Positions 41,172 through 53,106 of a DNA stretch of 64,000 bases are shown here, one piece after another. Made by a program: the position numbers and the translations under genes. Within the stretch, counting starts at the first letter, position 1; each line of letters begins with the position of its first letter. The notes beneath the pieces were generated by a model. It saw nothing but the letters and a program-made list of their open reading frames with translations, made no database searches and had not been told where the DNA came from. Source of the DNA: Minisyncoccota bacterium (lineage in GTDB: Bacteria; Patescibacteriota; Minisyncoccia; Phycocordibacterales; Phycocordibacteraceae); contig JALHQL010000006.1 of NCBI GenBank assembly GCA_022841985.1, forward strand, positions 16-64,015, read 5' to 3'.

Positions 41172-41579
41172 TTGCCCCTACCACTTATAATTGATGCGAT
41201 GAGGGAAACCCAGAGAAAAGGAGACGTCGCTGTTTCGCAAGCGATTGCAACATTTACAAAAGCGGGTTATGACGTCTCTGTTCCCCTTACAGAATCAGCT
41301 GCATATGATTTAATCGTGGAGAGGGACGGATTGATAAAACGGATACAGGTAAAATATTCGACTAGTGGAGAGGTTGACCTTCGTAGAATTCATTCAAACT
41401 CGACTGGGTATGTTGTTAAGAAGCCTAAAAAAGGCGCTTATGATTGGATTTACGTCTTTAAAGCCCTCTCTGAAAAAGAGTATCTTATTATCGACTGCCC
41501 TTTCGGTCGGCGGTCGATAACACCTGGAGTTCAGCATTCTATTAAAGTCGTACTGAAACAATTAGGAGGGGTCGCATAG
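41172..41579 (+). CDS. small PD-(D/E)xK-like nuclease-fold protein (Hjc-type or restriction-endonuclease-like). Tentative.
   Basis: AAYDLIVERDGLIKRIQVKYS fits a D...E-x-K core. Its 3' end overlaps the tRNA-Ser 5' end by about 15 nt. Confidence 0.35.
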   Translation: MPLPLIIDAMRETQRKGDVAVSQAIATFTKAGYDVSVPLTESAAYDLIVERDGLIKRIQVKYSTSGEVDLRRIHSNSTGYVVKKPKKGAYDWIYVFKALSEKEYLIIDCPFGRRSITPGVQHSIKVVLKQLGGVA

Positions 41580-41653
41580 TTGGTCTAGTGCAGTGGACTT
41601 GAAATCCACCGTACCGTAAGGTACCGCGAGTTCGAATCTCGCCCCCTCCGCCA
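41565..41653 (+). tRNA. tRNA-Ser (anticodon TGA) with encoded CCA. Integration target of the adjacent island.
   Basis: ggagggg...cccctcc acceptor, anticodon loop ctTGAaa, long variable arm cgtaccgtaaggtaccg, T-loop ttcgaat, then gCCA. Confidence 0.85.
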
Positions 41654-43147
41654 AAATTGGAAATCGGAATTGGAAGCCGAAATGGGGTCGGCGCGAAGCG
41701 CCGACACAAACGCATTCCCGCCAAGAATTCCCGAATTCAAAAGGTTTTTCCACGCTCCGCGTGGCTCAAAAAAGACGGTTCGATCCTTAATTTGAAAGTT
41801 CGAACCGACTTTTTTGTACAAATGAAGTTTTTCTTCATTTGTACACTCGTTTGCCAATTCCATATTGTATTTCAAAAACTTTTCGGTAAGTTCGAACCGA
41901 TTATTCGCTTTTTGCTCAAAAGCCGATAATTTCTCTTTGAGAAGCTGTTTAGAGCTAACCAAGGCATTTTTGGCGTCGCGATATTCTTCGAGCGACAAAG
42001 CGTTTTCGAGATAAGCATTCATCAGCTTCTCAATCTTGGAATTCAAAAGAGAAATATCGGCTTTTGTTTTGTCTGCAAAAAGCGTAGACGATTGGGCTTC
42101 ACTCAACATATCTTTTCTATTTTCCGCCAACATCCAAGAAGCCCAATCGTCGGGCAAAGAAACTTTTTTGATTTCCTTTTGAATTTCTGAAGTGATGATT
42201 TCTTCGCGACTATACTTTTGTGCGCAAGGATTTTTCCGTTTGGTACATCGCAAATAGTTATGACCTTTCTGCGTTTCGGTGGTAATGAAGCAACCACATT
42301 CTCCGCAACGGAAAAATCCTCTGTACAAAAATGGTTTCAATCCTCGCGACTTCGGTTTAGATTTTCTCATCATCACTTCCTGAACAAAATCAAAAAGTTT
42401 CTTTGTGATAATCGGTTCGTGCTTTCCCTCAAAAATCTCACCATTATATTTCATCAGTCCTGTATAGATAGGATTTTTGAGAAGTTTTTGATAATTCGAC
42501 ACCGCAAGTTCCTTTCCGCTTTTTCGTTTCAATCCAAGTCCGTTAAATTTGTCGCGAAGCTCCCGCAAAGTGAAAGACCCAGACGAATATGCCTCAAATG
42601 TTTTCTTGATTAAGGGTGCGATATTTTTATCAACAACAATTCTCCCGCCGACATTTAGATAGCCAAGTGGAGACATTTGAGGCCATATTCCGTCTTTCAC
42701 TTTGTTTCGCTTACCACGCTTTATATTCTCACTAAGGTTATCTACATAATACTTGGATTGCGAAAAAGCGATGGAAAGCATGAATTTGCCTTGCGGTGTC
42801 GGATCACACCAGAAAGTTGGAAATTTTAGCTCGGCAAGTTTTTCCGTATCGAGCAAGTAGATAATTTTTCCACCATCAACACTATTTCTCGCCAATCTGT
42901 CGGGATGCCATGCCAAAATCCCATTTGCTTCGCCTTGCTCGATACGGAGAAGCATTTCATTAAATACTGGCCGACCTGGTGCTTTAGCAGTTTGTTTCTC
43001 TACAAAAATATCTACCACCTCGATTTGTTCTTTAACCGCCAACTCTTTGAGTTCGGCCAGTTGATCGGAAATGCTTCTCACTTGCCGATCCTCTGTATCG
43101 GTTGATTTGCGAGTGTATATAAAAAACTTTCTGGTGTGATTATTCAT
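41585..43147 (-). CDS. large serine recombinase (resolvase/invertase catalytic domain, recombinase domain, zinc ribbon)
   Basis: FIYTRKSTDTEDRQVRSISDQ (catalytic Ser region), GILAWHPDRLARN, zinc ribbon CGECGCF...YLRC. Start trimmed to MNNHTRKFF at 43147. The open frame continues through IR1-L and antisense through the tRNA, so the true C-terminus is uncertain. Confidence 0.8.
   Translation of the reverse strand: MNNHTRKFFIYTRKSTDTEDRQVRSISDQLAELKELAVKEQIEVVDIFVEKQTAKAPGRPVFNEMLLRIEQGEANGILAWHPDRLARNSVDGGKIIYLLDTEKLAELKFPTFWCDPTPQGKFMLSIAFSQSKYYVDNLSENIKRGKRNKVKDGIWPQMSPLGYLNVGGRIVVDKNIAPLIKKTFEAYSSGSFTLRELRDKFNGLGLKRKSGKELAVSNYQKLLKNPIYTGLMKYNGEIFEGKHEPIITKKLFDFVQEVMMRKSKPKSRGLKPFLYRGFFRCGECGCFITTETQKGHNYLRCTKRKNPCAQKYSREEIITSEIQKEIKKVSLPDDWASWMLAENRKDMLSEAQSSTLFADKTKADISLLNSKIEKLMNAYLENALSLEEYRDAKNALVSSKQLLKEKLSAFEQKANNRFELTEKFLKYNMELANECTNEEKLHLYKKVGSNFQIKDRTVFFEPRGAWKNLLNSGILGGNAFVSALRADPISASNSDFQFWRRGRDSNSRYLTVRWISSPLH
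41648..41767. repeat. IR1-L, a 120-bp inverted repeat whose outer end is the tRNA-Ser 3' terminus (CCGCCA)
   Basis: Exact reverse complement of 43170-43289, checked base by base. Confidence 0.9.
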
Positions 43148-43169
43148 AATATTGTATTGGCAAACGAGT

Positions 43170-43289
43170 GAGCCACGCGGAGCGTGGAAAAACCTTTTGA
43201 ATTCGGGAATTCTTGGCGGGAATGCGTTTGTGTCGGCGCTTCGCGCCGACCCCATTTCGGCTTCCAATTCCGATTTCCAATTTTGGCGG
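43170..43289. repeat. IR1-R, inverted copy of IR1-L, ending in GGCGG
   Basis: Perfect 120-bp match to the reverse complement of 41648-41767. Confidence 0.9.
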
Positions 43290-43558
43290 TGTGTATTGGA
43301 CGAAGTTCGAATGTATTTCGGACAAAATCCGCAGGATTTTGACGACTAATCGCACGCGCGGAGCGCGTGGTGGCTTGAAACTGCATTGTACGCTCCGATA
43401 CTGTGCCAACACGAACGAATGCGCCTCGGACACGCTCGCGGACTCGCGTGTGCAAAAACCAAAAAATTTCCTTGCATTTTTCTCGCGTCTCCTCCCCCCA
43501 CCCCTCCACCGCGAAGCGGAAAAAGAAATGGAAAGGAAATTTTTGGTTTTGCTTCGCC
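43285..43558. repeat. IR2-L, a 274-bp structured repeat starting at the shared GGCGG core
   Basis: Reverse complement matches 49219-49492 almost exactly. It has internal hairpins (cacgcgc-gga-gcgcgtg, caaaatcc-gcag-ggattttg) and an internal inverted copy of ggaaatttttggtttt. The ORFs predicted inside it are artefacts of repeat DNA. Confidence 0.85.
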
Positions 43559-43662
43559 GTAGCCATAACAATATTATTTTGCACACTTGTATTATAACTT
43601 AACATTGAGTCAAAACACAAGAGAGTGCTATAATTAACCATGTTGATAAGTTTTTATATAAT

Positions 43663-43872
43663 ATGGCAAAATCCACAGCACAAAAATTTGGTGAGAACAT
43701 GAAAAAGATACGGCTCGAAAAAGGTATGTCGCAAGGCGACATTTGCCGTGAGTTAGGGTTAGACCGAGCGTATATTAGTAATGTTGAGAATGGCAAACAA
43801 AATCTTACCATTAGCACAATGGAAAAGGTCGCCAAGGCGCTGAGTGTGAGTATTGATATACTTCTGAAATAA
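43663..43872 (+). CDS. XRE/Cro-type HTH protein, probably the controller (C) protein of the restriction-modification system
   Basis: 69 aa. MSQGDICRELGLDRAYISNVENGKQNLTISTMEKVAKAL. Directly upstream of the M and R genes. Palindrome ttgagtcaa lies about 40 nt upstream. Confidence 0.65.
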   Translation: MAKSTAQKFGENMKKIRLEKGMSQGDICRELGLDRAYISNVENGKQNLTISTMEKVAKALSVSIDILLK

Positions 43873-43879
43873 TAATCAT

Positions 43880-45544
43880 ATGGCAAAGTTAAAAGACACC
43901 CCAAAACATGATAGACCTCGCGAGAAATTTCTCGAAAAAGGAAGCGACGCTCTGACCGACAGTGAGTTGTTGGCTATTTTGCTTGGAAGCGGTATCAAAG
44001 GAACCAACGTCAAATTACTTGCACAAAAAATATCTCGAAAATTTGGTGACAAGCTCATGGATGCGACAGTGGAGGATCTCGTACAGATTCCGGGTATCGG
44101 AAATGCCAAAGCTCTGCAAATTGCCTCAATGTTTGCACTGGCAAATCGAATGTATGAAAAGCACAACGGGGATGAGGAGCACAAAGTATTATCGGCGCTT
44201 GATGCAGCACGATTAGTCCCCGAATTAAAAACCGCAAAAAAGGAACATCTGGTTTGTCTTTACCTTAATGCACGAAGTGTATTGGTTCACAAAGAGATTG
44301 TTTCAGTTGGCACATTGGACAAAAGTATTATTCACCCCCGAGAAGTTTTTGCGCCTGGACTTGAAAAGCACGCCGCGAGCGTCATAGTTATTCATAATCA
44401 CCCATCAGGCGACCCTTCACCGAGTGACGAAGATAAACAAGTTGCCGCTCGAATTGTCGAAGCAGGCAAAATTGTCGGTATCAACGTACTTGATTTTCTT
44501 ATTATCGCGGAGCGAGGTGTACACAGCATTCTCGCAGAGTTGCAAAAAGTTGAGCCGAAAGCAACCGATTATGTTGCCGAAGGCAACCAAGGATCACTTT
44601 TTGATCTGCTTGTGGATTCTCGCCATATGTATTTTCTCGGAGTAAACGATAAAGCACCCGAACCTATAACAAAAACCAAACATAAGTTTATCGATCTCTT
44701 TGCAGGTATTGGTGGTTTCCATGTTGCCTTTCATAATGCGGGCGCTGAATGTGTGTTTGTGTCCGAATGGGACGAAAAAGCGCGAACTACGTACAGACAC
44801 AACTTTTATAAAGTATCTCCCGATATATTTAGAAATGGCAATTTCGTTGGCGATATCACTAAGGTGAACGAAAAAGAAATGCCTGATTTTGACATCATTA
44901 CGGGCGGCTTTCCTTGCCAGCCATTTTCACAAGCAGGTTTCAAGAAAGGTTTTAATGAAGCACGCGGCACATTGTTTTTTGATGTAGTTCGCCTTATGAA
45001 AGAAAAGAAACCTAAGGCATTTTTCCTTGAAAACGTGCGGGGTCTTTACGCACACGATGGAGGAAAAACATTTGAAACAATTAAGCGCATCATTGAAGAA
45101 GATCTCGGCTATTCATTCCATGCAAAAATCATTAAAGCATCAGATTTTGGTATGCCACAACACCGTCCGCGTTTGTTTATGGTCGGTTTCAGGGACGGAC
45201 ATGATTTTGAATGGCCCGAACCAGTCAATGAATTGAAATACACAATGTCCGATATTTTCGGTGGAAAGTGTAATAAAGATGTCGGCTTTACACTTCGTGT
45301 AGGAGGTCGCGGAAGCCAGATCACTGATCGACGCAACTGGGACGCGTATCGCGTGGATGGAAAAGTAGTCCAGCTCGGACCTAAAGAGGGCTTGAAAATG
45401 CAAGGATTCCCCGAGTGGTTTGAGTTTCCTGAAGATGTATCGTCAGTACAGTCTATGAAGCAGCTCGGCAACTCTGTCGCTGTACCTGCAATTCAAGCTG
45501 TTGCGGAAAGAATAATTGAAACACTAGAAAAATATGACAAATAA
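43880..45544 (+). CDS. fusion protein of an N-terminal RadC-like JAB/MPN domain and a C-terminal C5 cytosine DNA methyltransferase
   Basis: RadC HhH (VQIPGIGNAKALQI) and JAMM motif (IVIHNHPSGDPSPSDED). MTase motifs I FIDLFAGIGGFHVAF, IV GGFPCQPFSQAG, VI ENVRGL, VIII QHRPRLFMVGF, X KQLGNSVAVP. Confidence 0.8.
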   Translation: MAKLKDTPKHDRPREKFLEKGSDALTDSELLAILLGSGIKGTNVKLLAQKISRKFGDKLMDATVEDLVQIPGIGNAKALQIASMFALANRMYEKHNGDEEHKVLSALDAARLVPELKTAKKEHLVCLYLNARSVLVHKEIVSVGTLDKSIIHPREVFAPGLEKHAASVIVIHNHPSGDPSPSDEDKQVAARIVEAGKIVGINVLDFLIIAERGVHSILAELQKVEPKATDYVAEGNQGSLFDLLVDSRHMYFLGVNDKAPEPITKTKHKFIDLFAGIGGFHVAFHNAGAECVFVSEWDEKARTTYRHNFYKVSPDIFRNGNFVGDITKVNEKEMPDFDIITGGFPCQPFSQAGFKKGFNEARGTLFFDVVRLMKEKKPKAFFLENVRGLYAHDGGKTFETIKRIIEEDLGYSFHAKIIKASDFGMPQHRPRLFMVGFRDGHDFEWPEPVNELKYTMSDIFGGKCNKDVGFTLRVGGRGSQITDRRNWDAYRVDGKVVQLGPKEGLKMQGFPEWFEFPEDVSSVQSMKQLGNSVAVPAIQAVAERIIETLEKYDK

Positions 45545-46625
45545 AACTAAAACAACTCTCACAGGTAACAAAGGCGAATGGTCTGAGTTCTATGCCTTTA
45601 TTAAAATCCTGACTGACGGGAAAGTTTTTACTGCTGACAAAAATCTAAAAATCCTTGAGGAACATTTTCATATTGTCCTAAAAATTATCCGACAAGAAGC
45701 GATTGGAAAGAAAGAATACGACATCTCAAGAAACGATGGCAAAGTTATTGTATCTGATGAAAATGCAGAGATATCAATAATTGATCTTGAAAAAATCAAA
45801 GGGAGTGTCGCCAACGTTTTTGAGCAAATTAAAAATTCCAAAGGCACGACATTTGAAGTCGCGAGCGCGGCAAGTCCGATGCACGATCTTCACTGTACTC
45901 AAATGCGTGCTTCGAGTGGTAAAAAAGCCGACTTGACCATTGTTCTGCATGATAAAAAATCTCCCGAATTCCCAGAACTCGGTTTCAGTATCAAATCAAT
46001 GCTCGGTTCTCCGGCAACACTCCTAAATGCTTCTGGTGCTACAAATTTTCTATACCGCATTGCAACAGAAGATAATAAGCCCGTACAAAGTAGTGATGAT
46101 ATGTCGGTGAGAGATGCGACAAAACTGACGTATGGTGTCGGTGCACAACTTGAGTTTATTGGAATGGATAGCGATGTTTTCCGTCGTAATCTGCGAAAAA
46201 TTGATTCCATATTTCCCGAAATAGTTGCTCAAATGTTGCGACATTACTACATGGGAGAAGCGACTACAATCAATGATCTCGCAAACAAAATTGCAGATGA
46301 TTCCGTCTTTATGGAGCGAATCGACTTTACCAAAGAAATGCTGATAATGAACATCAAACGTTTCCTATCAAGCATTGCCCTCGGAATGATGCCAAGCAAA
46401 GATTGGGACGGATACACCGAAGCGCATGGCGGATATATCATCGTTAAAGAAGACGGTGATGTTGTCTGCTACCATCTCTATAACCGCGACAAATTTGAGG
46501 ACTATCTATTCCATAACACAAAACTCGATACGCCTAGCACTACTCGTCATGGATTTGGGAAAATCTATAAAGAAAATGACGAACAAAGAATGAAGCTTAA
46601 TTTACAAATACGATTTTTGAAATAA
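45534..46625 (+). CDS. probable cognate type II restriction endonuclease (363 aa). Family not assignable by eye; an HpaII-like family is possible.
   Basis: Start overlaps the MTase stop (ATGACAAATAA). Size and position fit an R gene. No catalytic motif is confidently identified. Confidence 0.45.
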   Translation: MTNKTKTTLTGNKGEWSEFYAFIKILTDGKVFTADKNLKILEEHFHIVLKIIRQEAIGKKEYDISRNDGKVIVSDENAEISIIDLEKIKGSVANVFEQIKNSKGTTFEVASAASPMHDLHCTQMRASSGKKADLTIVLHDKKSPEFPELGFSIKSMLGSPATLLNASGATNFLYRIATEDNKPVQSSDDMSVRDATKLTYGVGAQLEFIGMDSDVFRRNLRKIDSIFPEIVAQMLRHYYMGEATTINDLANKIADDSVFMERIDFTKEMLIMNIKRFLSSIALGMMPSKDWDGYTEAHGGYIIVKEDGDVVCYHLYNRDKFEDYLFHNTKLDTPSTTRHGFGKIYKENDEQRMKLNLQIRFLK

Positions 46626-46803
46626 AAAATTGCCAGATGTTGTGTAAGCAAGACAATCGAACGAAGTTGGGGAAATAAGCCACAAAGCGAAAAGTGCTTG
46701 ATTTGTATTGATAAGAGAGTAATCCTTACTTTGGCGCTTGACTCCTTATTTTAAGGCGCGTATAATAGATACGCGGTTATTTATTTTACTTATCAATCAA
46801 TTT

Positions 46804-47031
46804 ATGGAAGAAAAATCATCGGTAAATAAGTCAAAAATTGAGAAAAAGATGAACGTTATCATTTCTTTGCTTTTGAAAATTGCAAATGATGGGGGTACGG
46901 TAAGTCTAAAAGAGCAAGTGCGTGACCTTGCCTCATTTGGTTTGGATTCAGCAGAGATTGCCGAAATTACAGGTAAAAAGGTGGGGCATGTTAGTAAAGA
47001 ATTATCAGTATTAAAAAAGGAGAGTAAATAG
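46804..47031 (+). CDS. mini HTH protein 1 (75 aa), first of four tandem paralogs
   Basis: MNVIISLLLKIA...FGLDSAEIAEITGKKVGHVSKEL. Lrp/AsnC-like or sigma70-region-4-like HTH. Confidence 0.5.
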   Translation: MEEKSSVNKSKIEKKMNVIISLLLKIANDGGTVSLKEQVRDLASFGLDSAEIAEITGKKVGHVSKELSVLKKESK

Positions 47032-47034
47032 CCT

Positions 47035-47256
47035 ATGGAAAACAAAAATGACATTTTACAACAAGTCTCGAAGAAACTGAGTATTTTAATCGCACTCCAG
47101 CTTCAGGGTGAGAATAAAGTGGTTGAGGTAAAAGAAAACGTGGAAAAACTTTCCAGATTCGGACTTACAGACAGTGAGATCGCAGAAATCCTCGGCACCA
47201 CAGCAGGTACCGTATCAGTTGCTAAAGCTAGAATTAAAAAAGCTAGATCAAAATAA
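47035..47256 (+). CDS. mini HTH protein 2 (73 aa)
   Basis: LSILIALQLQGE...FGLTDSEIAEILGTTAGTVSVAKARIKK. Starts 3 nt after the paralog 1 stop. Confidence 0.5.
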   Translation: MENKNDILQQVSKKLSILIALQLQGENKVVEVKENVEKLSRFGLTDSEIAEILGTTAGTVSVAKARIKKARSK

Positions 47257-47259
47257 AGT

Positions 47260-47436
47260 ATGGCAAAGAATAAACAAAATCGTGATCCCCTTGAAGACGT
47301 GCGAGAAACTCTAAAAAGTATTCTCGTACTAGAATTATTTAAGTTAAATATTCCGCAGGTGGATATTGCTAAAAAGTTGCGAATGGACTTAAACGCGGTG
47401 AATGCCTTCCTGAAAGGAATTAAGAAAGATAAATAA
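47260..47436 (+). CDS. mini HTH protein 3 (58 aa)
   Basis: LKSILVLELFKLNIPQVDIAKKLRMDLNAVNAFLKGI. Below the ORF-track size cutoff. atg at 47260, taa at 47434-47436. Confidence 0.4.
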   Translation: MAKNKQNRDPLEDVRETLKSILVLELFKLNIPQVDIAKKLRMDLNAVNAFLKGIKKDK

Positions 47437-47437
47437 T

Positions 47438-47602
47438 ATGGGTAGAAAAACTAAAAGCGAAAAACTGGAGCCTTTGGAGGAGATTAAACGACTACTTGTT
47501 CTCGGGCTTATAAATCAGGGCGTAAAAGGAAAAGACATCGCCGCCATTCTGGAGGTTGATCCAGCAATTATTAGTCGTTTGATTTCATCTACGAAAAAAT
47601 AG
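47438..47602 (+). CDS. mini HTH protein 4 (54 aa)
   Basis: IKRLLVLGLINQGVKGKDIAAILEVDPAIISRLI. atg at 47438, 1 nt after the paralog 3 stop. Confidence 0.4.
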   Translation: MGRKTKSEKLEPLEEIKRLLVLGLINQGVKGKDIAAILEVDPAIISRLISSTKK

Positions 47603-47605
47603 TAT

Positions 47606-48184
47606 ATGGCAGACCGACTCAACCCCGACATTATGGAGGTACTCGTTAAGAAGACGGATAAGACAGCCGAACAAATTCGTCCGCGCCTCTCTGAACTTCG
47701 TCGCAAGTATAGCGGTCTCACAATGAACGCTGCTGCTCAGATGTACGCACAATCGCACGGCACTTCCATTATGACGAAGCTTGACCAAGGCGACCGACAA
47801 TCGCTCGCTACGGTACAAGCAATTACTCAAGTGAGCGTATCCAGCGTTTCAAAGGTAGATAAACGCACGCTAAATATAAATAACTCGCCGATACATAACC
47901 TTTCATTTGGTGACCGAAATCAAATAAATCAAAGTGTTGTGACGCTCGACAATGCACTCACTGAGTTATCTGAAAAAATCAGCAAAAGCACAGTACTGAC
48001 TGACGACGAAAAGAATGACTACAAGTCTGATATACAAACTATTGCAAGTCAGGCTGGAAAAAGTAAACCGAACAGGCAAATCATCAAAGTAGCATGGGAG
48101 AGCGTTAAGGCGCTTGCGGACATAGAAGGCTTTGCCCAATTGGTCGGCAGGATTACTCCGCTTATTCAAGGATTTTTTTCATAA
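47606..48184 (+). CDS. hypothetical protein (192 aa), upstream partner of the HEPN-like protein
   Basis: Stop at 48184, next start at 48186. The N-terminus resembles the mini-HTH proteins weakly. Confidence 0.45.
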   Translation: MADRLNPDIMEVLVKKTDKTAEQIRPRLSELRRKYSGLTMNAAAQMYAQSHGTSIMTKLDQGDRQSLATVQAITQVSVSSVSKVDKRTLNINNSPIHNLSFGDRNQINQSVVTLDNALTELSEKISKSTVLTDDEKNDYKSDIQTIASQAGKSKPNRQIIKVAWESVKALADIEGFAQLVGRITPLIQGFFS

Positions 48185-48185
48185 T

Positions 48186-48887
48186 ATGTCTCAACGCCTT
48201 GATCCAATTCTATTAAAGAAACTTGCCGATAAAATTGGTAAGTCCATCAAATATACGCGCGAGCAAAATGCCAAACGTGCTTCAAGAGCGGGCGTTTCTT
48301 CCGAAGCCTATTTTTTATATTGGCTGAAAGAAAAGAAAATTGGCTTTCAAAAGTACAAGCGTTCTTTGCCTGTTGATGTTCAAAACGAAGCAAGAACACT
48401 CACAGGCACTCCACAACACACAACAAGCACCACATCTAATCGTGTGGGACACACCGAAACACTCACTGCTTCATCGCGCTATATCGATTTACTCGAAATG
48501 ATTCAGGATGATGAGCTTAGAGATAGATGTGCGGATCTTATAAAACGACCAAGGAATCATGACAGAGTTTTTAGAGAAGCCACAACTATTCTTGAACATC
48601 GGGTCAAGAATTTGAGTGGTATTACACAAAGAATGAACCCGCAAGCATTAATTGGGAAAGCAATTGCGCCTGATCCTGCGCGAGCTATTTTAGTGGTCAG
48701 CAGTGATTCCAGTGAGCAAGAAGGTTTTTACAAAATTTGCGCTGGTATTGAAGCAGCATTCCGCAACCGCACCCATCATGAAGTCTCGAACAAGCTCACA
48801 CGTAATGACGCGATAAAATTTTGTGGCTTCATTGACTCACTGTTACTTGTGCTTGTTAATGCAGAAGTACATCAAGAACGGATTTAG
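48186..48887 (+). CDS. protein with a C-terminal HEPN-like (Abi_C / TIGR02391-like) domain. Candidate abortive-infection RNase.
   Basis: C-terminal EQEGFYKICAGIEAAFRNRTHHE contains R-x4-H. Start atg at 48186. Confidence 0.45.
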   Translation: MSQRLDPILLKKLADKIGKSIKYTREQNAKRASRAGVSSEAYFLYWLKEKKIGFQKYKRSLPVDVQNEARTLTGTPQHTTSTTSNRVGHTETLTASSRYIDLLEMIQDDELRDRCADLIKRPRNHDRVFREATTILEHRVKNLSGITQRMNPQALIGKAIAPDPARAILVVSSDSSEQEGFYKICAGIEAAFRNRTHHEVSNKLTRNDAIKFCGFIDSLLLVLVNAEVHQERI

Positions 48888-49218
48888 CTAAAGGGAGCCG
48901 TCCACGTCAGTGGACGGGCTTCTGTGCGCGCATAGGGTGGGTGGGGCAAGCACATACAGATTTGTTTGTGCCCTAGCACAATCCATTTTTCTTTGAGTAA
49001 CTACTAACCTCTCTCGAAGTCACTGAGCGAACGCACACAACGCCGAAGCAGCCAGCGCGAGCGAATGCGAGCGGGCTATGTGTAGGCGGTTGTGTGTGTT
49101 CGCGGACGTTAGAGCTACTACTAAACGTCGCTATGGCACGCGCCTCGGTCGCCACAAGGAAATGGAGCAAACGGGCTTCAATGTGATAACTTTGTTGCCC
49201 TTTGTGGAGTTTCCTTGT

Positions 49219-49492
49219 GGCGAAGCAAAACCAAAAATTTCCTTTCCATTTCTTTTTCCGCTTCGCGGTGGAGGGGTGGGGGGAGGAGACGCGAGAAAAA
49301 TGCAAGGAAATTTTTTGGTTTTTGCACACGCGAGTCCGCGAGCGTGTCCGAGGCGCATTCGTTCGTGTTGGCACAGTATCGGAGCGTACAATGCAGTTTC
49401 AAGCCACCACGCGCTCCGCGCGTGCGATTAGTCGTCAAAATCCTGCGGATTTTGTCCGAAATACATTCGAACTTCGTCCAATACACACCGCC
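49219..49492. repeat. IR2-R, inverted copy of IR2-L, ending in CCGCC followed by A
   Basis: 274 bp. Base-by-base reverse complement of 43285-43558. Confidence 0.85.
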
Positions 49493-49672
49493 AGAAGTCC
49501 GAGTTAGAACCAAAGCAAAGTAAGGGTTTTAATACAACTAAACTCAAAATAAAACATCCATCTAAAATATGGGTGTTTTGCTTATTGGTGGCACTTATCC
49601 ACAATAGGGCACTTTACAAGAAAGAGATAATTGTATAGGATCATACTATCACTTAACAGCTATCATTAATTT

Positions 49673-51340
49673 ATGAAAAACACCGAGGAAAATAAAATTG
49701 AAACAATAGACATTACTCCCGATAAAAGCATTTATCACAAAATCGGGGAGGCAAATTACTCGATTTCTGACGCACTCGCAGAATTAGTGGATAACTCAAT
49801 TGATGCCGCAAATGACAATGGTGTCGAGATTTATATCGTTTTAGACAAGAAAGACGAGAAAATTGTCATTGAGGACAATGGAAAGGGAATGAGCAAAGAA
49901 ATAGCTTCAAAAAGCTTGGTACTAGCCCATTCTAAAAAGCACGAGGCACTAGGTGAATTCGGTTTGGGACTAAAGTCCGCATGCACCAGTTTAGGAACAA
50001 TCTTTTCTATAACAAGTACACCTGAAGGTTCTGAAGAAAGATACTCTCTTGAATATAATAAGGAACAATTTTTAAAATCAGATGACTGGCATCATTACCC
50101 TCTCGCAATATCAAAAGCTCCAAAAAATGAACACGGAACAAGAATAGAAATCAGTAATTTGCGAATAAAATTATATGACGCTCAAGTAACACGTCTCAAG
50201 GATGACTTAGCTAAAAGATATGGACCATACATTGAACACAACAATGTTGTCATTAAAGTTGGTTTAAAAAGAGAGACGGCAAAGCCTTGTGTGCCAAGTG
50301 AAATTAAACTCGTTGAAGGTTCGAAGAAAGAATTTTCATACATGCTCTCAAAAGGAGCCACCATTACAGGTTGGTATGGTTTATCAGAGGTCGGATCACA
50401 AAAACAAAGTGGTTTTAATATGTTTCGTAGGGGGCGTCTTATACGATCATCGGAAAAGCTTGGTTATAATTACCACCCACATCTAATGAGTATTGTCGGA
50501 GAAATTAATTTGGACTCCGTCCCAGTCACACATAACAAACGAGAATTTATTATTGAATCAGGGGAATTCAAAGAGTTTATTAAAGAATTCTGGGGTGATC
50601 AGACCGAGAAATATTTAGGCCAAAAAGTGAAGGGAATGATTGATGAAGTAACAAAGACAGCTAGAGATCGATCAAACCAAGAAAAAGCTGATAGCATGCC
50701 GACTGAAAAGAAAGAGACTATAAAAAATAACTTATTGAATGCTCTTAACCGACTAGACGAATTCAAAGAGCTGGCCTATCCAGATCTGTATCAACCTAAA
50801 AAAAGGTCTGCGAGCGGAAAAGAGGACCCAAAAGAATCAAGAGAAACTGATTTACGTGTAGCCAGGGAGGAAGAAATCAAACCTACAAAAGAGGAGGAGA
50901 GGGATCAGAGAACGCCCAAAAAAACACAACCAAAAACGGCCAAATTTATCATGGTTGGTGGAAAAAAATTCAAATTCGATTTCTTTTTGAAGAATTTGGC
51001 AAATGACACCATCGACAAAGAGACAGTTATCAATCAGGAAAACGTTATTGAAATATACATTAATACGGGATTTAAAGGTTACGGCTTGACGAAAGATTCT
51101 GATTTTTATTCTACTTTCCACATAGCAGAGGCGATTGCTGAACTTTATGTTAAAGAAGCTGGTCAAAAAATGGAAAGGGTCTTTGAATTACGAAACGGTC
51201 TTATATATGAAGTGGCGTCGTTAATCTATGAAGAAGAAGAGTATAAGAAACTAGAGAAGACTGAAAAAGAACTAGTCGCAGTAACTGAAAAGAGGAAAGA
51301 GTTGGAAGAAAAAAGAACAAGAACAAGTTTAAAAATATAA
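49673..51340 (+). CDS. GHKL-superfamily ATPase (HATPase_c_3, prokaryotic MORC-like) with a charged coiled C-terminal region
   Basis: N-box ELVDNSIDA, G1 IEDNGKGM, G2 GEFGLGLKSA. Confidence 0.75.
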   Translation: MKNTEENKIETIDITPDKSIYHKIGEANYSISDALAELVDNSIDAANDNGVEIYIVLDKKDEKIVIEDNGKGMSKEIASKSLVLAHSKKHEALGEFGLGLKSACTSLGTIFSITSTPEGSEERYSLEYNKEQFLKSDDWHHYPLAISKAPKNEHGTRIEISNLRIKLYDAQVTRLKDDLAKRYGPYIEHNNVVIKVGLKRETAKPCVPSEIKLVEGSKKEFSYMLSKGATITGWYGLSEVGSQKQSGFNMFRRGRLIRSSEKLGYNYHPHLMSIVGEINLDSVPVTHNKREFIIESGEFKEFIKEFWGDQTEKYLGQKVKGMIDEVTKTARDRSNQEKADSMPTEKKETIKNNLLNALNRLDEFKELAYPDLYQPKKRSASGKEDPKESRETDLRVAREEEIKPTKEEERDQRTPKKTQPKTAKFIMVGGKKFKFDFFLKNLANDTIDKETVINQENVIEIYINTGFKGYGLTKDSDFYSTFHIAEAIAELYVKEAGQKMERVFELRNGLIYEVASLIYEEEEYKKLEKTEKELVAVTEKRKELEEKRTRTSLKI

Positions 51341-51341
51341 A

Positions 51342-52754
51342 ATGAGTCAGACCCTTAAGCGAGCAAACGAATATTTTGGGGTAACTGAGTCTGACTATAA
51401 GAAGACTGGCGCATTTAATCCGGTCATCGGTGTAGACAGCTTATTTTTTGTAGATCCGCTACTGCTCTCTAAAACAAGAATACCTGAGTTCAAGGATGCT
51501 CAAAAAGAGGTGCGTGATTATTTTGCTAGTGTCATCACACTTATCAGAAGTGGTAATCAAAAAGCAAAAGCACTAGCTCACAAGAAACTTATTTTAAGAG
51601 AGGTTAGGGGTATCGGCATAGGTTACGGTAGTACATCTGATGATGGTTCCGCCATTGGTCCAAAACTTGCAAAACGTTTGTTAAATACTGCAGAGGAACT
51701 CATCCAGATGGGTATTACCGATCCAGCCATCTTTGAAGTCATGGGTCTTTTTGAGGAAGATTTTGGGCCAGATCGACTTAGTGACGGCTTGACACGCATT
51801 CTTCTCAAACGCGTCTGCCAATATTCTGAACGAATCACGAAAGAACTCAAAATTATAGATACATATACACTAACTACTTATGAGAGAAAGTACACTCTAA
51901 CAAAACACCCCCTTAAAGATGGGCCTTTGCTTTTCGTGCCCCAAGGCATATTGCGAGATCTCCCGATAGCGAATAGTTTTGAGGAGATTAGTGTAGTTGC
52001 AATTTTTAATGAAGATCTGAGAAAGAAATTTAATTCTATTCTGGCATCCTGTTTTGCTGGAGATAAAAATAAAAAGCCCAAGAAATCTGAAATTAAGAAA
52101 TATCTCCTAGAAACGAAAGATGGAATCAAAACAGTTGTTGCGGCATATCAGTCATGTAGTCCTGAATCGTATAATTTTGACACCGATCCTTCTGGTTTAT
52201 ATCTGTGGCTTGAGAAAGCAAAACAGTTAGCTCGTGAGAACCCAATTTCACTTCCATCAAAACCAAAACAAGGTGATATTGATGATGTGGTACAGAAAGT
52301 TATACAGGCATTTAAAAGAGGAATTGAATCTAAGGGTTGGTGGAAATCACTTTATAACGAGAGTAAGGAATCACTGAATGAAAGCCACGCAAGACATTTC
52401 TTTTATGCAACCGCGCTCTTGTATTGCGAAGCATGTGATATTGATATTTCACCCGAATCAAATGCTGGTCAAGGTCCAGTAGATTTCAAATTGAGCCGTG
52501 GTCACAAAAAGATAGTTGTTGAAATAAAATTAACTTCAGGACATGTTCGACAAGGTTATGAAAAACAAACACGAATATATGAAGAAAGTGAAGATGCTGA
52601 AGCTAGTTATTTCCTTGTTGTTCAAGTAACAGAGAAAAGTAAAGTTCTGCAAAAGGTGCTTAAAATGGAGGAAGTGGAAGAAAAGGAGGGTAAAAAACAC
52701 CCGACAATCGTAGTTGTGGATGGGCGAGAGAAACCGTCAGCAAGTCACGCCTAG
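51342..52754 (+). CDS. partner protein (470 aa) with a C-terminal PD-(D/E)xK nuclease-like motif
   Basis: GQGPVDFKLSRGHKKIVVEIKLTSG fits PD...(E)xK. Start is 2 nt after the GHKL stop. Confidence 0.5.
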   Translation: MSQTLKRANEYFGVTESDYKKTGAFNPVIGVDSLFFVDPLLLSKTRIPEFKDAQKEVRDYFASVITLIRSGNQKAKALAHKKLILREVRGIGIGYGSTSDDGSAIGPKLAKRLLNTAEELIQMGITDPAIFEVMGLFEEDFGPDRLSDGLTRILLKRVCQYSERITKELKIIDTYTLTTYERKYTLTKHPLKDGPLLFVPQGILRDLPIANSFEEISVVAIFNEDLRKKFNSILASCFAGDKNKKPKKSEIKKYLLETKDGIKTVVAAYQSCSPESYNFDTDPSGLYLWLEKAKQLARENPISLPSKPKQGDIDDVVQKVIQAFKRGIESKGWWKSLYNESKESLNESHARHFFYATALLYCEACDIDISPESNAGQGPVDFKLSRGHKKIVVEIKLTSGHVRQGYEKQTRIYEESEDAEASYFLVVQVTEKSKVLQKVLKMEEVEEKEGKKHPTIVVVDGREKPSASHA

Positions 52755-52924
52755 TCATATTTACTTTTCAATAGAATAATCAACTGCATTTTGCCCTTTA
52801 TCTGAGTTTGGTTTAGGCGTCTCAAACCACTCCGGATGCTCCTTATGCATTTTCCTCAGTTTTTGTATACTTGTATCAAGAATCCAGAAATTAAAGCGTC
52901 TTTTTGGTTCTAATTTCGGGACAT

Positions 52925-53106
52925 CGTCACCGCCGCGAAGCGGAAAAAGAGGAAAGGAAATTTTTGGTTTGCCTGCGCGAGTCCGCGAGCGCGGTCGAGG
53001 CGCGTTCCAGCGCAATCGGAGCGTACGCTTCGGGTTCAAGCCACCACGCGCTCCGCGCGTGCGAAGTGGGTTCGAGCAAAGGTGATACACTCACCGCCTC
53101 AAAAGA
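52925..53106. repeat. third, degenerate IR2-family copy, ending in CACCGCC
   Basis: cgcgaagcggaaaaagaggaaaggaaatttttggttt...gcgcgagtccgcgagcg...ccaccacgcgctccgcgcgtgcg...caccgcc aligns to IR2 with indels. Confidence 0.6.

What the first reader, a model, noticed from the sequence alone, without database searches (positions are those of the whole stretch)
41648..43289. Serine recombinase gene flanked by a perfect 120-bp inverted repeat, one arm fused to the tRNA 3' end
Positions 41648-41767 and 43170-43289 are exact reverse complements, checked base by base. They bracket only the large serine recombinase gene. One arm lies in the recombinase 3' end and is antisense to the tRNA. The other lies upstream of its start codon. 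A recombinase sitting inside its own perfect inverted-repeat pair is atypical. It could be a self-inverting unit that switches recombinase expression, or the remnant of a recombinase-catalysed inversion whose product joined attB-like and attP-like halves. Each arm contains hairpins, ggcgcgaagcgcc and ccacgctccgcgtgg, that could be recombinase-binding subsites.
Basis: seen in the sequence. Interest (0 to 1): 0.65.

Follow-up and report, generated by a model that had tools for sequence, protein, structure and literature searches.

The report
Integrase island with internal inverted attP
The perfect inverted repeat is real and marks a widespread, apparently undescribed design of mobile island in tiny 'CPR' bacteria: the island sits at a serine tRNA gene, insertion cuts off the end of its own integrase gene, and a spare backwards copy of that end is kept just upstream.

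Summary
Positions 41648-41768 and 43169-43289 are a perfect 121-nt inverted repeat around one large serine recombinase (LSR) gene, and the left arm starts in the last 6 nt of tRNA-Ser(TGA).

It is not a one-off. A second perfect repeat (275 nt, 43284-43558 / 49219-49493) abuts it and brackets 5.7 kb of defence cargo. The same double-repeat design recurs in about 52 of some 85 related LSR copies from Patescibacteria assemblies, always at tRNA-Ser. It also occurs in 39%-identical paralogues at tRNA-Ala and tmRNA.

My reading:
- Left arm = element half of attL.
- Right arm plus the adjoining 275 nt = an intact, inverted, internal copy of attP.
- Distal 275-nt copy = attR.

The LSR reading frame crosses the attP core. 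Insertion therefore replaces a conserved 15-19-residue tail with tRNA-antisense sequence, while the internal copy keeps the tail.

Orientation is almost fixed. Flipped cassettes, which encode the full-length protein, are rare and have mismatched arms.

The best functional guess, which is inferred, is an invertible cassette that parks and re-arms the integrase. This is a new variant of a known kind.

The parts
41565..41653 (+). tRNA-Ser(TGA), the integration target. Its T-arm and acceptor 3' strand form the attB-type (B) half-site of attL.
   Evidence: ARAGORN; Rfam tRNA. In 30+ related loci the LSR 3' arm always abuts a tRNA-Ser gene, with all five anticodons represented.
41648..41653 (.). Core region CCGCCA. 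The minimal block shared by attL, the internal attP, attR and inferred attB sites is CCGC, and the crossover lies inside it.
   Evidence: Junction comparison across loci. Host flanks diverge immediately after ...CCGC.
41648..41768 (-). Left arm. It is the P' (element) half of attL and also encodes LSR codons ~460-500. It contains conserved hairpins at 41687-41705 and 41750-41764.
   Evidence: open frame in all lineages; compensatory pairs.
41585..43147 (-). Large serine recombinase ORF as it stands in the integrated state (520 aa). The last 20 residues (RGRDSNSRYLTVRWISSPLH) are tRNA-antisense sequence.
   Evidence: Pfam PF00239, PF07508 and PF13408. Thousands of homologues at 78-96% identity. 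~25% identity to TP901-1 Int; matches to SPbeta and A118 integrase structures.
41769..43168 (-). Unique 'L' segment between the arms: the LSR body plus a 22-nt leader. It includes the 26 codons (41769-41843, with a terminator-like hairpin flanked by A and T runs) that are missing from the upstream inverted copy.
   Evidence: (repeat I2).
43148..43168 (.). Remnant of LSR codons '..ELANE' in inverted orientation. It pairs with 41844-41866 at 91%. It shows that the upstream copy arose as an inverted duplication of the LSR 3' end followed by an internal 26-codon deletion.
   Evidence: I2; most lineages read ..VLANE|EPRGAW in frame.
43169..43289 (+). Right arm: the P' half of an intact internal attP copy (attP*), inverted relative to attL.
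43284..43558 (+). UCR1: the P half of the internal attP*. Positions 43290-43346 encode the conserved LSR tail CVLDEVRMYFGQNPQDFDD (stop at 43347-43349) in frame with the right arm. GC-rich hairpins follow.
   Evidence: third-codon-position variability, synonymous excess. TTCGAA lies 16 nt from CCGC, versus 11 nt in the tRNA (PMC3783163).
43663..43872 (+). XRE-family HTH gene, divergent from the LSR. It is a conserved core gene, 75-207 nt from the proximal UCR in 19 of 30 elements. Candidate regulator or directionality factor (inferred).
43880..48887 (+). Variable cargo: RadC-C5 cytosine methyltransferase fusion, HpaII-type restriction enzyme, four small HTH-like ORFs, and two weak matches to candidate defence proteins.
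   Evidence: Cargo differs between loci, 1.5-6.4 kb.
49219..49493 (+). UCR2: the P half of attR and the distal end of the 7.85-kb element (41648-49493). It is identical to UCR1 in inverted orientation.
49494..53100 (.). Older island remnant without an LSR: GHKL/MORC-like ATPase, a PDC-M36A-like protein, and a diverged tail-less UCR3 at 52937-53100. I read this as evidence of tandem accretion at the same tRNA.
   Evidence: Tandem arrays with the same junction grammar are seen in L069 and L088-L092.

Best explanation
The window holds a 7.85-kb integrative island (41648-49493) inserted by its own large serine recombinase at the 3' end of tRNA-Ser(TGA).

Site assignment (shown or strongly supported):
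- The left arm is the element-side (P') half of attL.
- The right arm, together with the adjoining 275-nt conserved sequence (UCR1), is an intact inverted copy of the whole attP module, placed 22 nt upstream of the recombinase start codon.
- The second UCR copy, at 49219-49493, is the P half of attR.
- The two perfect inverted repeats are therefore the two halves of one duplicated ~396-bp attP module.

The reading frame (shown): the recombinase ORF runs across the attP core. In the attP configuration it ends in a conserved 15-19-residue tail encoded in the UCR. Insertion into the tRNA replaces that tail with tRNA-antisense sequence. This makes the integrated gene a tail-swapped version, while the upstream inverted copy keeps an intact tail, stop codon and downstream hairpins.

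Function (inferred): the identical arms make the 1.4-kb recombinase segment an invertible cassette.
- Inversion could occur by host homologous recombination across the 121-bp arms, or by the recombinase acting on attL x internal attP.
- It would re-join the gene to its tail and re-arm the integrase from within the chromosome.
- The observed orientation would be the stable parked state. The flipped state would be short-lived, because an active enzyme flips back or excises the element.
For: Architecture:
- The same layout (upstream arm abutting UCR, downstream arm abutting a tRNA-Ser 3' end) is found in ~52 of ~85 LSR copies from independent assemblies, including complete chromosomes.
- The two arms of one element are identical over 120-121 nt in ~34 loci and differ by at most one base in ~44. 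Arms of different elements are only 70-98% alike.
- UCR pairs behave the same way.

Site assignment:
- tRNA flanks differ between close relatives, so they are host-derived.
- attR flanks after ..ACACCGC are diverse tRNA trailers and terminators.
- All junction types switch exactly at CCGC.
- A T-loop-like TTCGAA lies 11 nt from the core in the tRNA and 16 nt in the UCR. The tRNA-Ala paralogue shows the same 11 versus 16. This matches the 5-bp attB/attP shift of the zinc-ribbon motif described for LI integrase (PMC3783163).

Tail is coding:
- The peptide pattern hL(D/N)x(V/I/A)Rx(Y/F/H)F..N is conserved and followed by a stop in all lineages.
- Codon-position entropy is 9.3/7.1/14.3. There are 1440 synonymous codon differences in frame, against 705 and 413 in the other two frames.
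- The same motif occurs in 39%-identical paralogues at tRNA-Ala, tmRNA and L069B.

Inversion does happen and yields the predicted full-length ORF: L074, L081, L084 and L087. About 14% of database LSRs with a resolved C-terminus carry the tail.

attL-type sites can serve as targets. Tandem arrays with P(new)-core-P'(old) junctions occur in L088-L092 and L069, and cassettes lie between two convergent tRNA-Ser genes in L036 and L037. This makes attL x internal attP mechanistically plausible.

Precedent: in Dehalococcoides ssrA islands the LSR gene overlaps attL at the tmRNA 3' end. The authors suggested the gene may be fully functional only on the circular form (PMC3146451).
Against: - No element with identical arms was found flipped. 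All 3-4 flipped copies have heterologous arms (44-97% identity). They could be by-products of recombination between different elements in tandem arrays rather than a working switch.
- Cargo orientation is also fixed: the XRE gene is proximal in 19 of 19 elements that have it, and 12 of 13 homologous cargo pairs are co-oriented. Long perfect repeats evidently persist here without frequent flipping.
- It is untested whether the tail matters for activity. Some module types (UCR3-like) put a stop codon right after the core.
- A single attP inside the gene would already give shut-off on integration, so the benefit of the second copy is argued, not shown.
- No promoter was located.
- The structure prediction was too poor to place the tail (pLDDT 46).
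- How the repeats are kept identical is unexplained.
Confidence: 0.55

Rival explanations
1. The site assignment is the same, but the internal inverted attP copy is purely regulatory and never meant to invert. It would be an operator where the recombinase (and/or the adjacent XRE protein) binds upstream of its own gene, plus a bidirectional insulator or terminator, or a source of a long 5'-3' RNA duplex. The sequence identity of the copies would be a by-product of non-crossover gene conversion.
For: - The copy sits between the divergent XRE and LSR genes, where promoters and operators are expected.
- Orientation of both segments is essentially fixed.
- The conserved palindromes and hairpins in the arm and UCR look like binding or structural elements.
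Against: - An operator needs ~50 bp, not 396 bp of perfect identity that includes a complete tail, stop codon and 3' region.
- Junction variants show that the internal copy's core has been used as a crossover point: cassettes flanked by tRNA on both sides (L036, L037) and flipped cassettes.
- No promoter or operator has been identified.
Confidence: 0.25
2. The 1.64-kb unit (arm-LSR-arm) is an autonomous IS-like transposon. Its 121-bp terminal inverted repeats would join into a palindromic attP on a minicircle. It would insert into tRNA-Ser ends and into the ends of separate, non-autonomous UCR-bounded cargo islands.
For: - The unit has sharp ends at the core and occurs in four flank contexts: UCR/tRNA, tRNA/UCR, UCR/UCR and tRNA/tRNA.
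- Many database copies sit on 1.7-2.1-kb contigs.
- L036 and L037 carry the unit without any UCR or cargo.
Against: - The gene's conserved tail is encoded outside the unit, in the UCR.
- A palindromic site would insert in either orientation, yet orientation is ~52:3.
- Flanks are only ever tRNA-Ser or UCR.
- UCR, XRE and LSR travel together across lineages.
- No tRNA-UCR junction lacking the unit was seen.
Confidence: 0.08
3. A Hin/Gin-type phase-variation switch: the recombinase inverts its own segment to turn a neighbouring gene on or off.
For: A recombinase gene lying inside its own inverted repeats resembles the Salmonella hin segment (from my own knowledge).
Against: - The enzyme is a large serine integrase, not a small invertase.
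- One flank is always a tRNA gene and the other is variable cargo, so there is no conserved regulated gene.
- Orientation is fixed.
- No outward promoter was found.
Confidence: 0.03
4. Assembly artefact or chance repeat.
For: Perfect inverted repeats can arise from fold-back mis-assembly.
Against: The same structure appears in more than 50 independent assemblies made with different assemblers, including two complete chromosomes. Lineage-specific arm sequences co-vary within each element.
Confidence: 0.01

Closest known systems
Dehalococcoides ssrA-specific genomic islands (DsiB serine recombinase; McMurdie et al. 2011, PMC3146451)
   Same: - A large serine recombinase gene lies next to attL and reads towards the 3' end of a tRNA-like gene.
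- The ORF overlaps attL, so its stop codon depends on integration state.
- Islands are small, non-conjugative and cargo-carrying.
- Tandem arrays form at one target.
   Different: - No internal inverted attP copy or long perfect inverted repeats are described there.
- Those islands have a 20-bp direct repeat, a crossover in the T-loop, and a second small recombinase (DsiA) plus a 6-gene module.
- Here the shared block is only CCGC(CA) at the extreme 3' end, the core partner is a single XRE gene, and the hosts are Patescibacteria.
Phage serine integrases (A118/LI, TP901-1, SPbeta SprA, phiC31, Bxb1)
   Same: - Same domain set.
- Short sites with a tiny identity block.
- attP-type and attB-type half-sites whose outer motif is offset by ~5 bp.
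   Different: - Only ~25% identity.
- The target is a tRNA 3' end, and any of five tRNA-Ser genes can be used.
- The gene spans attP.
- attL-type sites appear usable as targets (tandem arrays), which canonical integrases avoid.
- A second, inverted attP is carried inside the element.
SSV1-type archaeal integrases (integrase gene partitioned on integration)
   Same: attP lies inside the integrase ORF, so insertion into a tRNA gene changes the integrase gene (from my own knowledge).
   Different: - SSV1 uses a tyrosine recombinase and the split is near the 5' part of the gene.
- There is no spare inverted copy.
- Here only the last 15-19 codons are exchanged.
Salmonella Hin / Mu Gin invertible segments and the yeast 2-micron FLP inverted repeats
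   Same: A recombinase gene is bracketed by inverted recombination sites. The predicted circular form (two identical inverted ~396-bp repeats dividing a circle into two unique segments) has the 2-micron topology (from my own knowledge).
   Different: - The enzyme class is different.
- The sites are composite att halves.
- There is no evidence of free flip-flop, and orientation is strongly biased.

Membership tests
Large serine recombinase / serine integrase | N-terminal resolvase catalytic domain with the serine nucleophile motif | tested here: met
   PF00239, E=1.6e-20, residues 9-154; motif FFIYTRKSTD.
Large serine recombinase / serine integrase | Recombinase domain plus zinc-ribbon domain in the C-terminal half | tested here: met
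   PF07508 (8.7e-14) and PF13408 (1.9e-6). Matches to the SPbeta and A118 integrase structures.
Large serine recombinase / serine integrase | Coiled-coil insertion in the zinc-ribbon domain | tested here: inconclusive
   Long helices are predicted at residues ~333-433, but the model is poor (pLDDT 46).
Large serine recombinase / serine integrase | Short attP/attB sites with a very small identity block, and attB outer motifs ~5 bp closer to the centre than in attP | tested here: met
   The identity block is CCGC. TTCGAA lies 11 nt (tRNA) versus 16 nt (UCR) from it, and the tRNA-Ala paralogue shows the same. This is sequence inference, not biochemistry.
Large serine recombinase / serine integrase | Unidirectional attP x attB reaction, with reversal needing a directionality factor | not testable with these tools
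   Needs in vitro or in vivo recombination assays. Tandem-array junctions suggest attL can act as a target.
t(m)RNA-targeting serine-recombinase islands (Dehalococcoides ssrA-GI type) | Recombinase gene next to attL, convergent with the t(m)RNA gene, with the ORF overlapping the junction | tested here: met
t(m)RNA-targeting serine-recombinase islands (Dehalococcoides ssrA-GI type) | Direct repeat (~20 bp) of the target 3' end at the far boundary | tested here: not met
   Only CCGC(CA) is shared at 49488-49493.
t(m)RNA-targeting serine-recombinase islands (Dehalococcoides ssrA-GI type) | Conserved multi-gene integration module including a second small serine recombinase (DsiA) | tested here: not met
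   Only an XRE HTH gene is conserved next to the LSR.
Hin/Gin-type DNA invertase switch | Small serine recombinase with a C-terminal HTH acting on ~26-bp inverted sites | tested here: not met
   The protein is a 500+ aa LSR, and the arms are 121 nt with composite att junctions.
Hin/Gin-type DNA invertase switch | Both orientations occur among otherwise identical elements | tested here: not met
   ~52 canonical versus 3-4 flipped, and the flipped copies have heterologous arms. Read-level data were not available.
Insertion sequence / transposon with terminal inverted repeats | A discrete unit inserted at many unrelated sites, with all functions inside the repeats | tested here: not met
   Flanks are only tRNA-Ser or UCR, and the gene's conserved tail lies outside the repeats.

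The most novel reading that the evidence does not exclude
The twin perfect repeats form a built-in 'integrase integrity switch' that is conserved across Patescibacteria and across paralogues with different t(m)RNA targets.
- Integration clips the recombinase's functional tail and parks the element.
- Rare inversion of the recombinase cassette re-attaches the tail from the internal inverted attP copy and re-arms the enzyme. The arrival of a second element next door would do the same.
- This would give control of directionality and timing without, or in addition to, a separate directionality factor.
Probability: 0.3. Interest if true: 0.8.

Novelty: new variant of a known kind. Interest (0 to 1): 0.65.

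Why it matters
Patescibacteria have tiny genomes and no known plasmids or conjugation machinery. How they exchange defence genes is poorly understood. This element family is very abundant: thousands of near-identical recombinases across many CPR classes. It carries restriction-modification and other defence cargo, and it may be a main vehicle of gene flow there.

For recombinase biology it offers three things:
- A natural serine integrase whose gene spans its own attP.
- An enzyme that accepts any tRNA-Ser 3' end, and apparently also occupied sites, as target.
- An enzyme that keeps a second inverted attP inside the integrated element.

If the tail swap controls activity, it would be a new, compact way to regulate directionality. 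That is of interest to those who engineer serine integrases. The perfect repeats also explain why these loci fragment metagenome assemblies.

Tried and rejected
- Chance or assembly artefact: rejected by recurrence in independent assemblies.
- Known RNA family in the arms or UCR: only the tRNAs match.
- Sigma-70 promoter for the LSR in the arm or UCR: none above background.
- A separately expressed mini-ORF for the C-terminal 60 residues on the plus strand (43152-43349): the frame and start are not conserved between lineages. The window lineage has a 1-nt shift relative to the common ..VLANE|EPRGAW frame. I judge it unlikely to be a gene.
- UCR as a pseudo-tRNA: no tRNA fold was found, and the TTCGAA spacing differs from that of a tRNA.
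- Viral origin: no relative in IMG/VR.
- Circular copies: attP formed on excision would be identical to the internal copy, so short contigs cannot prove circles. L087 was tested for terminal overlap and is not circular.
- Structure of the full-length protein, to place the tail: the model was too poor to use.
- Exact-protein look-up of the window's LSR for other contexts: not on record.
- Metagenome scan for the flipped or full-length configuration in the window's lineage: one hit only, L081.
- Central dinucleotide: symmetry arguments leave CC, CG and GC all open.
Full report
**1. The observation**

The repeat finder reports arms 41648-41768 and 43169-43289. They are 121 nt long, 100% complementary and 1400 nt apart, and I read them directly. 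ARAGORN and Rfam place tRNA-Ser(TGA) at 41565-41653 on the plus strand. The left arm therefore begins with the last six bases of the tRNA, CCGCCA.

Only one gene lies between the arms. It is on the minus strand with its ATG at 43147, and it has Resolvase, Recombinase and Zn_ribbon_recom domains. It is a large serine recombinase (LSR). It is distantly related (~25% identity) to TP901-1 integrase and matches the SPbeta and A118 integrase structures.

The ORF runs through the whole left arm and on, antisense, through the tRNA to a stop at 41585. The overlap with the tRNA is 6 nt, not the whole arm.

**2.

- A second perfect inverted repeat abuts the first. It spans 43284-43558 and 49219-49493 (275 nt; the tool's 278 nt includes one mismatch) and brackets 5.66 kb. 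I call this sequence UCR.
- A third, 76-90% diverged copy lies at 52937-53100.
- GC content drops from about 50% to about 40% between 41650 and 53000.
- The bracketed genes are an XRE regulator, a RadC-C5 methyltransferase fusion, an HpaII-type restriction enzyme and small HTH proteins. Beyond 49494 there are a GHKL/MORC-like ATPase and a candidate defence protein.

**3. It is a family trait**

The LSR has thousands of homologues at 78-96% identity in Patescibacteria MAGs. I fetched 80 genome loci and a dozen metagenome contigs. In about 52 of some 85 LSR copies the layout is the same:
- One arm lies at the LSR 3' end and abuts the reverse complement of a tRNA-Ser 3' end. All five anticodons occur, and the tRNA sequences differ even between close relatives.
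- One inverted arm lies ~22 nt upstream of the ATG and abuts the same conserved UCR.
- Where enough flank exists, a second inverted UCR lies 1.5-6.4 kb further on, beyond variable cargo.

Within one element the two arms are identical in ~34 loci and differ by at most one base in ~44. Arms of different elements are only 70-98% alike, and they are mosaics of allelic blocks. UCR pairs behave alike.

An XRE gene sits 75-207 nt from the proximal UCR, divergent from the LSR, in 19 of 30 elements.

More distant LSRs (31-39% identity) show the same design:
- at tRNA-Ala (L012, 13305-14994);
- at tmRNA (L064, 9812-11516);
- in L069.

**4. Assigning the sites**

The far junction reads UCR...ACACCGC followed by diverse host sequence, often a tRNA terminator. 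The near junction reads tRNA...CCGC followed by the arm. The block common to every junction is therefore CCGC, as expected for a serine integrase with a tiny crossover.

It follows that:
- tRNA|arm is attL (B-core-P');
- UCR|host is attR (P-core-B');
- the internal UCR|arm junction has exactly the sequence that excision would create. It is an intact attP, inverted, sitting inside the integrated element.

The two perfect repeats are the two halves of one duplicated ~396-bp module.

Independent support comes from half-site geometry. A T-loop-like TTCGAA lies 11 nt from CCGC in the tRNA and 16 nt from it in the UCR. The tRNA-Ala paralogue shows 11 versus 16 as well. For LI integrase the zinc-ribbon motif occupies positions 16-24 in attP half-sites and 11-19 in attB half-sites, a 5-bp shift (PMC3783163). 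This part is inference from sequence.

**5. The gene spans attP**

Reading the LSR frame through an arm into the UCR gives a conserved tail followed by a stop. Examples are CVLDEVRMYFGQNPQDFDE, CLLDKVRNYFEQNPND and YSLYKIRTFFETNPDEEI.

Evidence that this tail is coding:
- Variation is concentrated at third codon positions (entropy 9.3/7.1/14.3).
- Synonymous codon differences are two to three times more frequent in this frame than in the other two. The caveat is that the sequences were selected by a peptide pattern.
- The paralogues at tRNA-Ala, tmRNA and L069B have the same motif: DILNVARTHFERNC, VLLSFARTYFENQTK and ELLAFARTHFSTQ.

The genuine C-terminus is therefore encoded beyond the crossover. 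In the window, integration has replaced it with RGRDSNSRYLTVRWISSPLH. The intact tail (43290-43346), its stop codon and the downstream hairpins survive in the inverted copy.

That copy also retains a remnant of the '..ELANE' codons (43148-43168 versus 41844-41866) with a 26-codon internal deletion. It therefore began as an inverted duplication of the gene's 3' end.

Authors of the Dehalococcoides ssrA islands noted a similar ORF/attL overlap. They speculated that the gene is complete only on the circle (PMC3146451).

**6. Is it an active inversion switch?**

Orientation is nearly fixed. Exceptions exist, and they are informative.

| Configuration | Loci |
|---|---|
| Flipped: tRNA-arm-ATG..LSR..arm-UCR, full-length ORF | L074, L081, L084; L087 relative to its cargo |
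| UCR on both sides (tandem junctions) | L029, L085/86, L087 |
| Between two convergent tRNA-Ser genes, no UCR or cargo | L036, L037; probably L038, where the downstream arm is cut off |
| Tandem arrays where the older LSR reads into the newer element's distal UCR | L088-L092 (five samples), L069 |

In every case the switch of flank occurs exactly at the core. The outer ends of both arms have therefore served as crossover points, and attL-type sites can be targets.

About 14% of database LSRs with a resolved C-terminus carry the true tail.

However, no element with identical arms was found flipped. All flipped copies have heterologous arms. One cargo pair (L024 versus L029) is inverted, while twelve pairs are not. 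A targeted scan of JGI metagenomes for the full-length configuration in the window's lineage gave a single contig.

**7. Mechanism I commit to**

Shown or strongly supported:
- This is a tRNA-Ser-specific LSR island.
- The arms are P' halves.
- An intact inverted attP lies upstream of the gene.
- The gene's tail is exchanged on integration.

Inferred:
- The observed orientation is a parked state with an altered integrase.
- The identical arms allow inversion of the 1.4-kb cassette, either by host recombination or by residual LSR acting on attL x internal attP.
- Inversion restores the full-length gene.
- The re-armed state is short-lived because the active enzyme flips back or, perhaps with the XRE protein, excises the element.
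- Only cassettes with mismatched arms remain trapped in the flipped state.

This accounts for four things: the inverted placement next to the start codon, the retention of a complete 3' end, the long perfect homology, and the link between flipped state and imperfect arms.

It does not explain why a single attP would not suffice, or how the repeats are homogenised without visible flip-flop.

The main rival is that the internal copy is only an operator or insulator, and that its identity is maintained by non-crossover conversion. An autonomous IS-like reading of the 1.64-kb unit is disfavoured by the external tail, the orientation bias and the restricted flanks. A Hin-like gene switch and an artefact are rejected.

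**8. Hairpins**

The central one keeps pairing through GC/CG/AU exchanges at three positions, even at the cost of amino-acid changes (ALRAD versus RLRRD). They lie 40-115 nt from the core, beyond a canonical LSR half-site. Similar GC-rich palindromes occur in the UCR. Their role (accessory-protein sites, RNA or DNA structure) is open.

**9. Novelty**

I found no description of this architecture in the searchable literature. The closest described system is the Dehalococcoides ssrA island family. I rate the finding a new variant of a known kind (LSR integrative islands at t(m)RNA genes). Its distinctive, conserved twist is an internal inverted attP with a split integrase tail.

Noticed in passing
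window 43281-43558 and 49219-49496: A second perfect inverted repeat (275-278 nt) abuts the reported one and brackets 5.66 kb of cargo. It is conserved as an architecture in related loci.
   Followed up: yes
window 49494-53100: An older low-GC island remnant without a recombinase. It carries a GHKL/MORC-like ATPase (MzaB-like) and a PDC-M36A-like protein. It ends in a diverged UCR copy (52937-53100) that would place a stop codon right after the core.
   Followed up: partly
window 43880-46625: A RadC (JAB) + UPF0758_N domain is fused to a C5 cytosine methyltransferase and followed by an HpaII-type restriction enzyme. The RadC-methylase fusion within an RM pair is unusual.
   Followed up: no
window 46738-47602: Four tandem small ORFs (97, 73, 58 and 54 aa) with weak HTH / sigma region-4 matches. 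They look like paralogous repeats of one small DNA-binding protein.
   Followed up: no
window 49494-49520; L023 and L087 attR flanks: The sequence just outside attR (GAAGTCCGAGTTAGAACC) recurs in two unrelated loci. It carries TT(A/T)GAA about 12 nt from CCGC, which is attB-type spacing. It may be a conserved B'-like half-site or the stub of an older element's arm.
   Followed up: partly
L036 9780-11584; L037 9778-11582; L038 9775-: In L036 and L037 the recombinase cassette (arm-LSR-arm) lies between two convergent tRNA-Ser genes with no UCR or cargo. L038 has a tRNA-Ser upstream, but the contig ends in the downstream arm. This is the product expected if the internal attP recombined with a second tRNA-Ser gene.
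   Followed up: partly
L012 13305-14994; L064 9812-11516; L069 6574-8279: Recombinases only 39% identical show the same arm/UCR design and the same tail motif. L012 sits at tRNA-Ala and L064 at tmRNA.
   Followed up: partly
L088-L092 (five samples), L085/L086, L029: In tandem arrays the older element's recombinase reads into the newer element's distal UCR and so regains a (foreign) tail. Arrival of a second element might therefore re-arm the resident enzyme.
   Followed up: no
window 41172-41579: The PD-(D/E)XK endonuclease ORF overlaps the 5' end of tRNA-Ser by 15 nt. The same tRNA-Ser(TGA) locus next to RuvX/PilM genes is occupied by other recombinase elements in L088-L092.
   Followed up: no
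loci L002, L006, L008, L011, L013, L022, L073 (record titles): Copies 85-95% identical sit in MAGs labelled Bacteroidia, Gammaproteobacteria, Actinomycetota, Bdellovibrionales or Bacteroidota. These are probably mis-binned Patescibacteria contigs rather than cross-phylum transfer.
   Followed up: no
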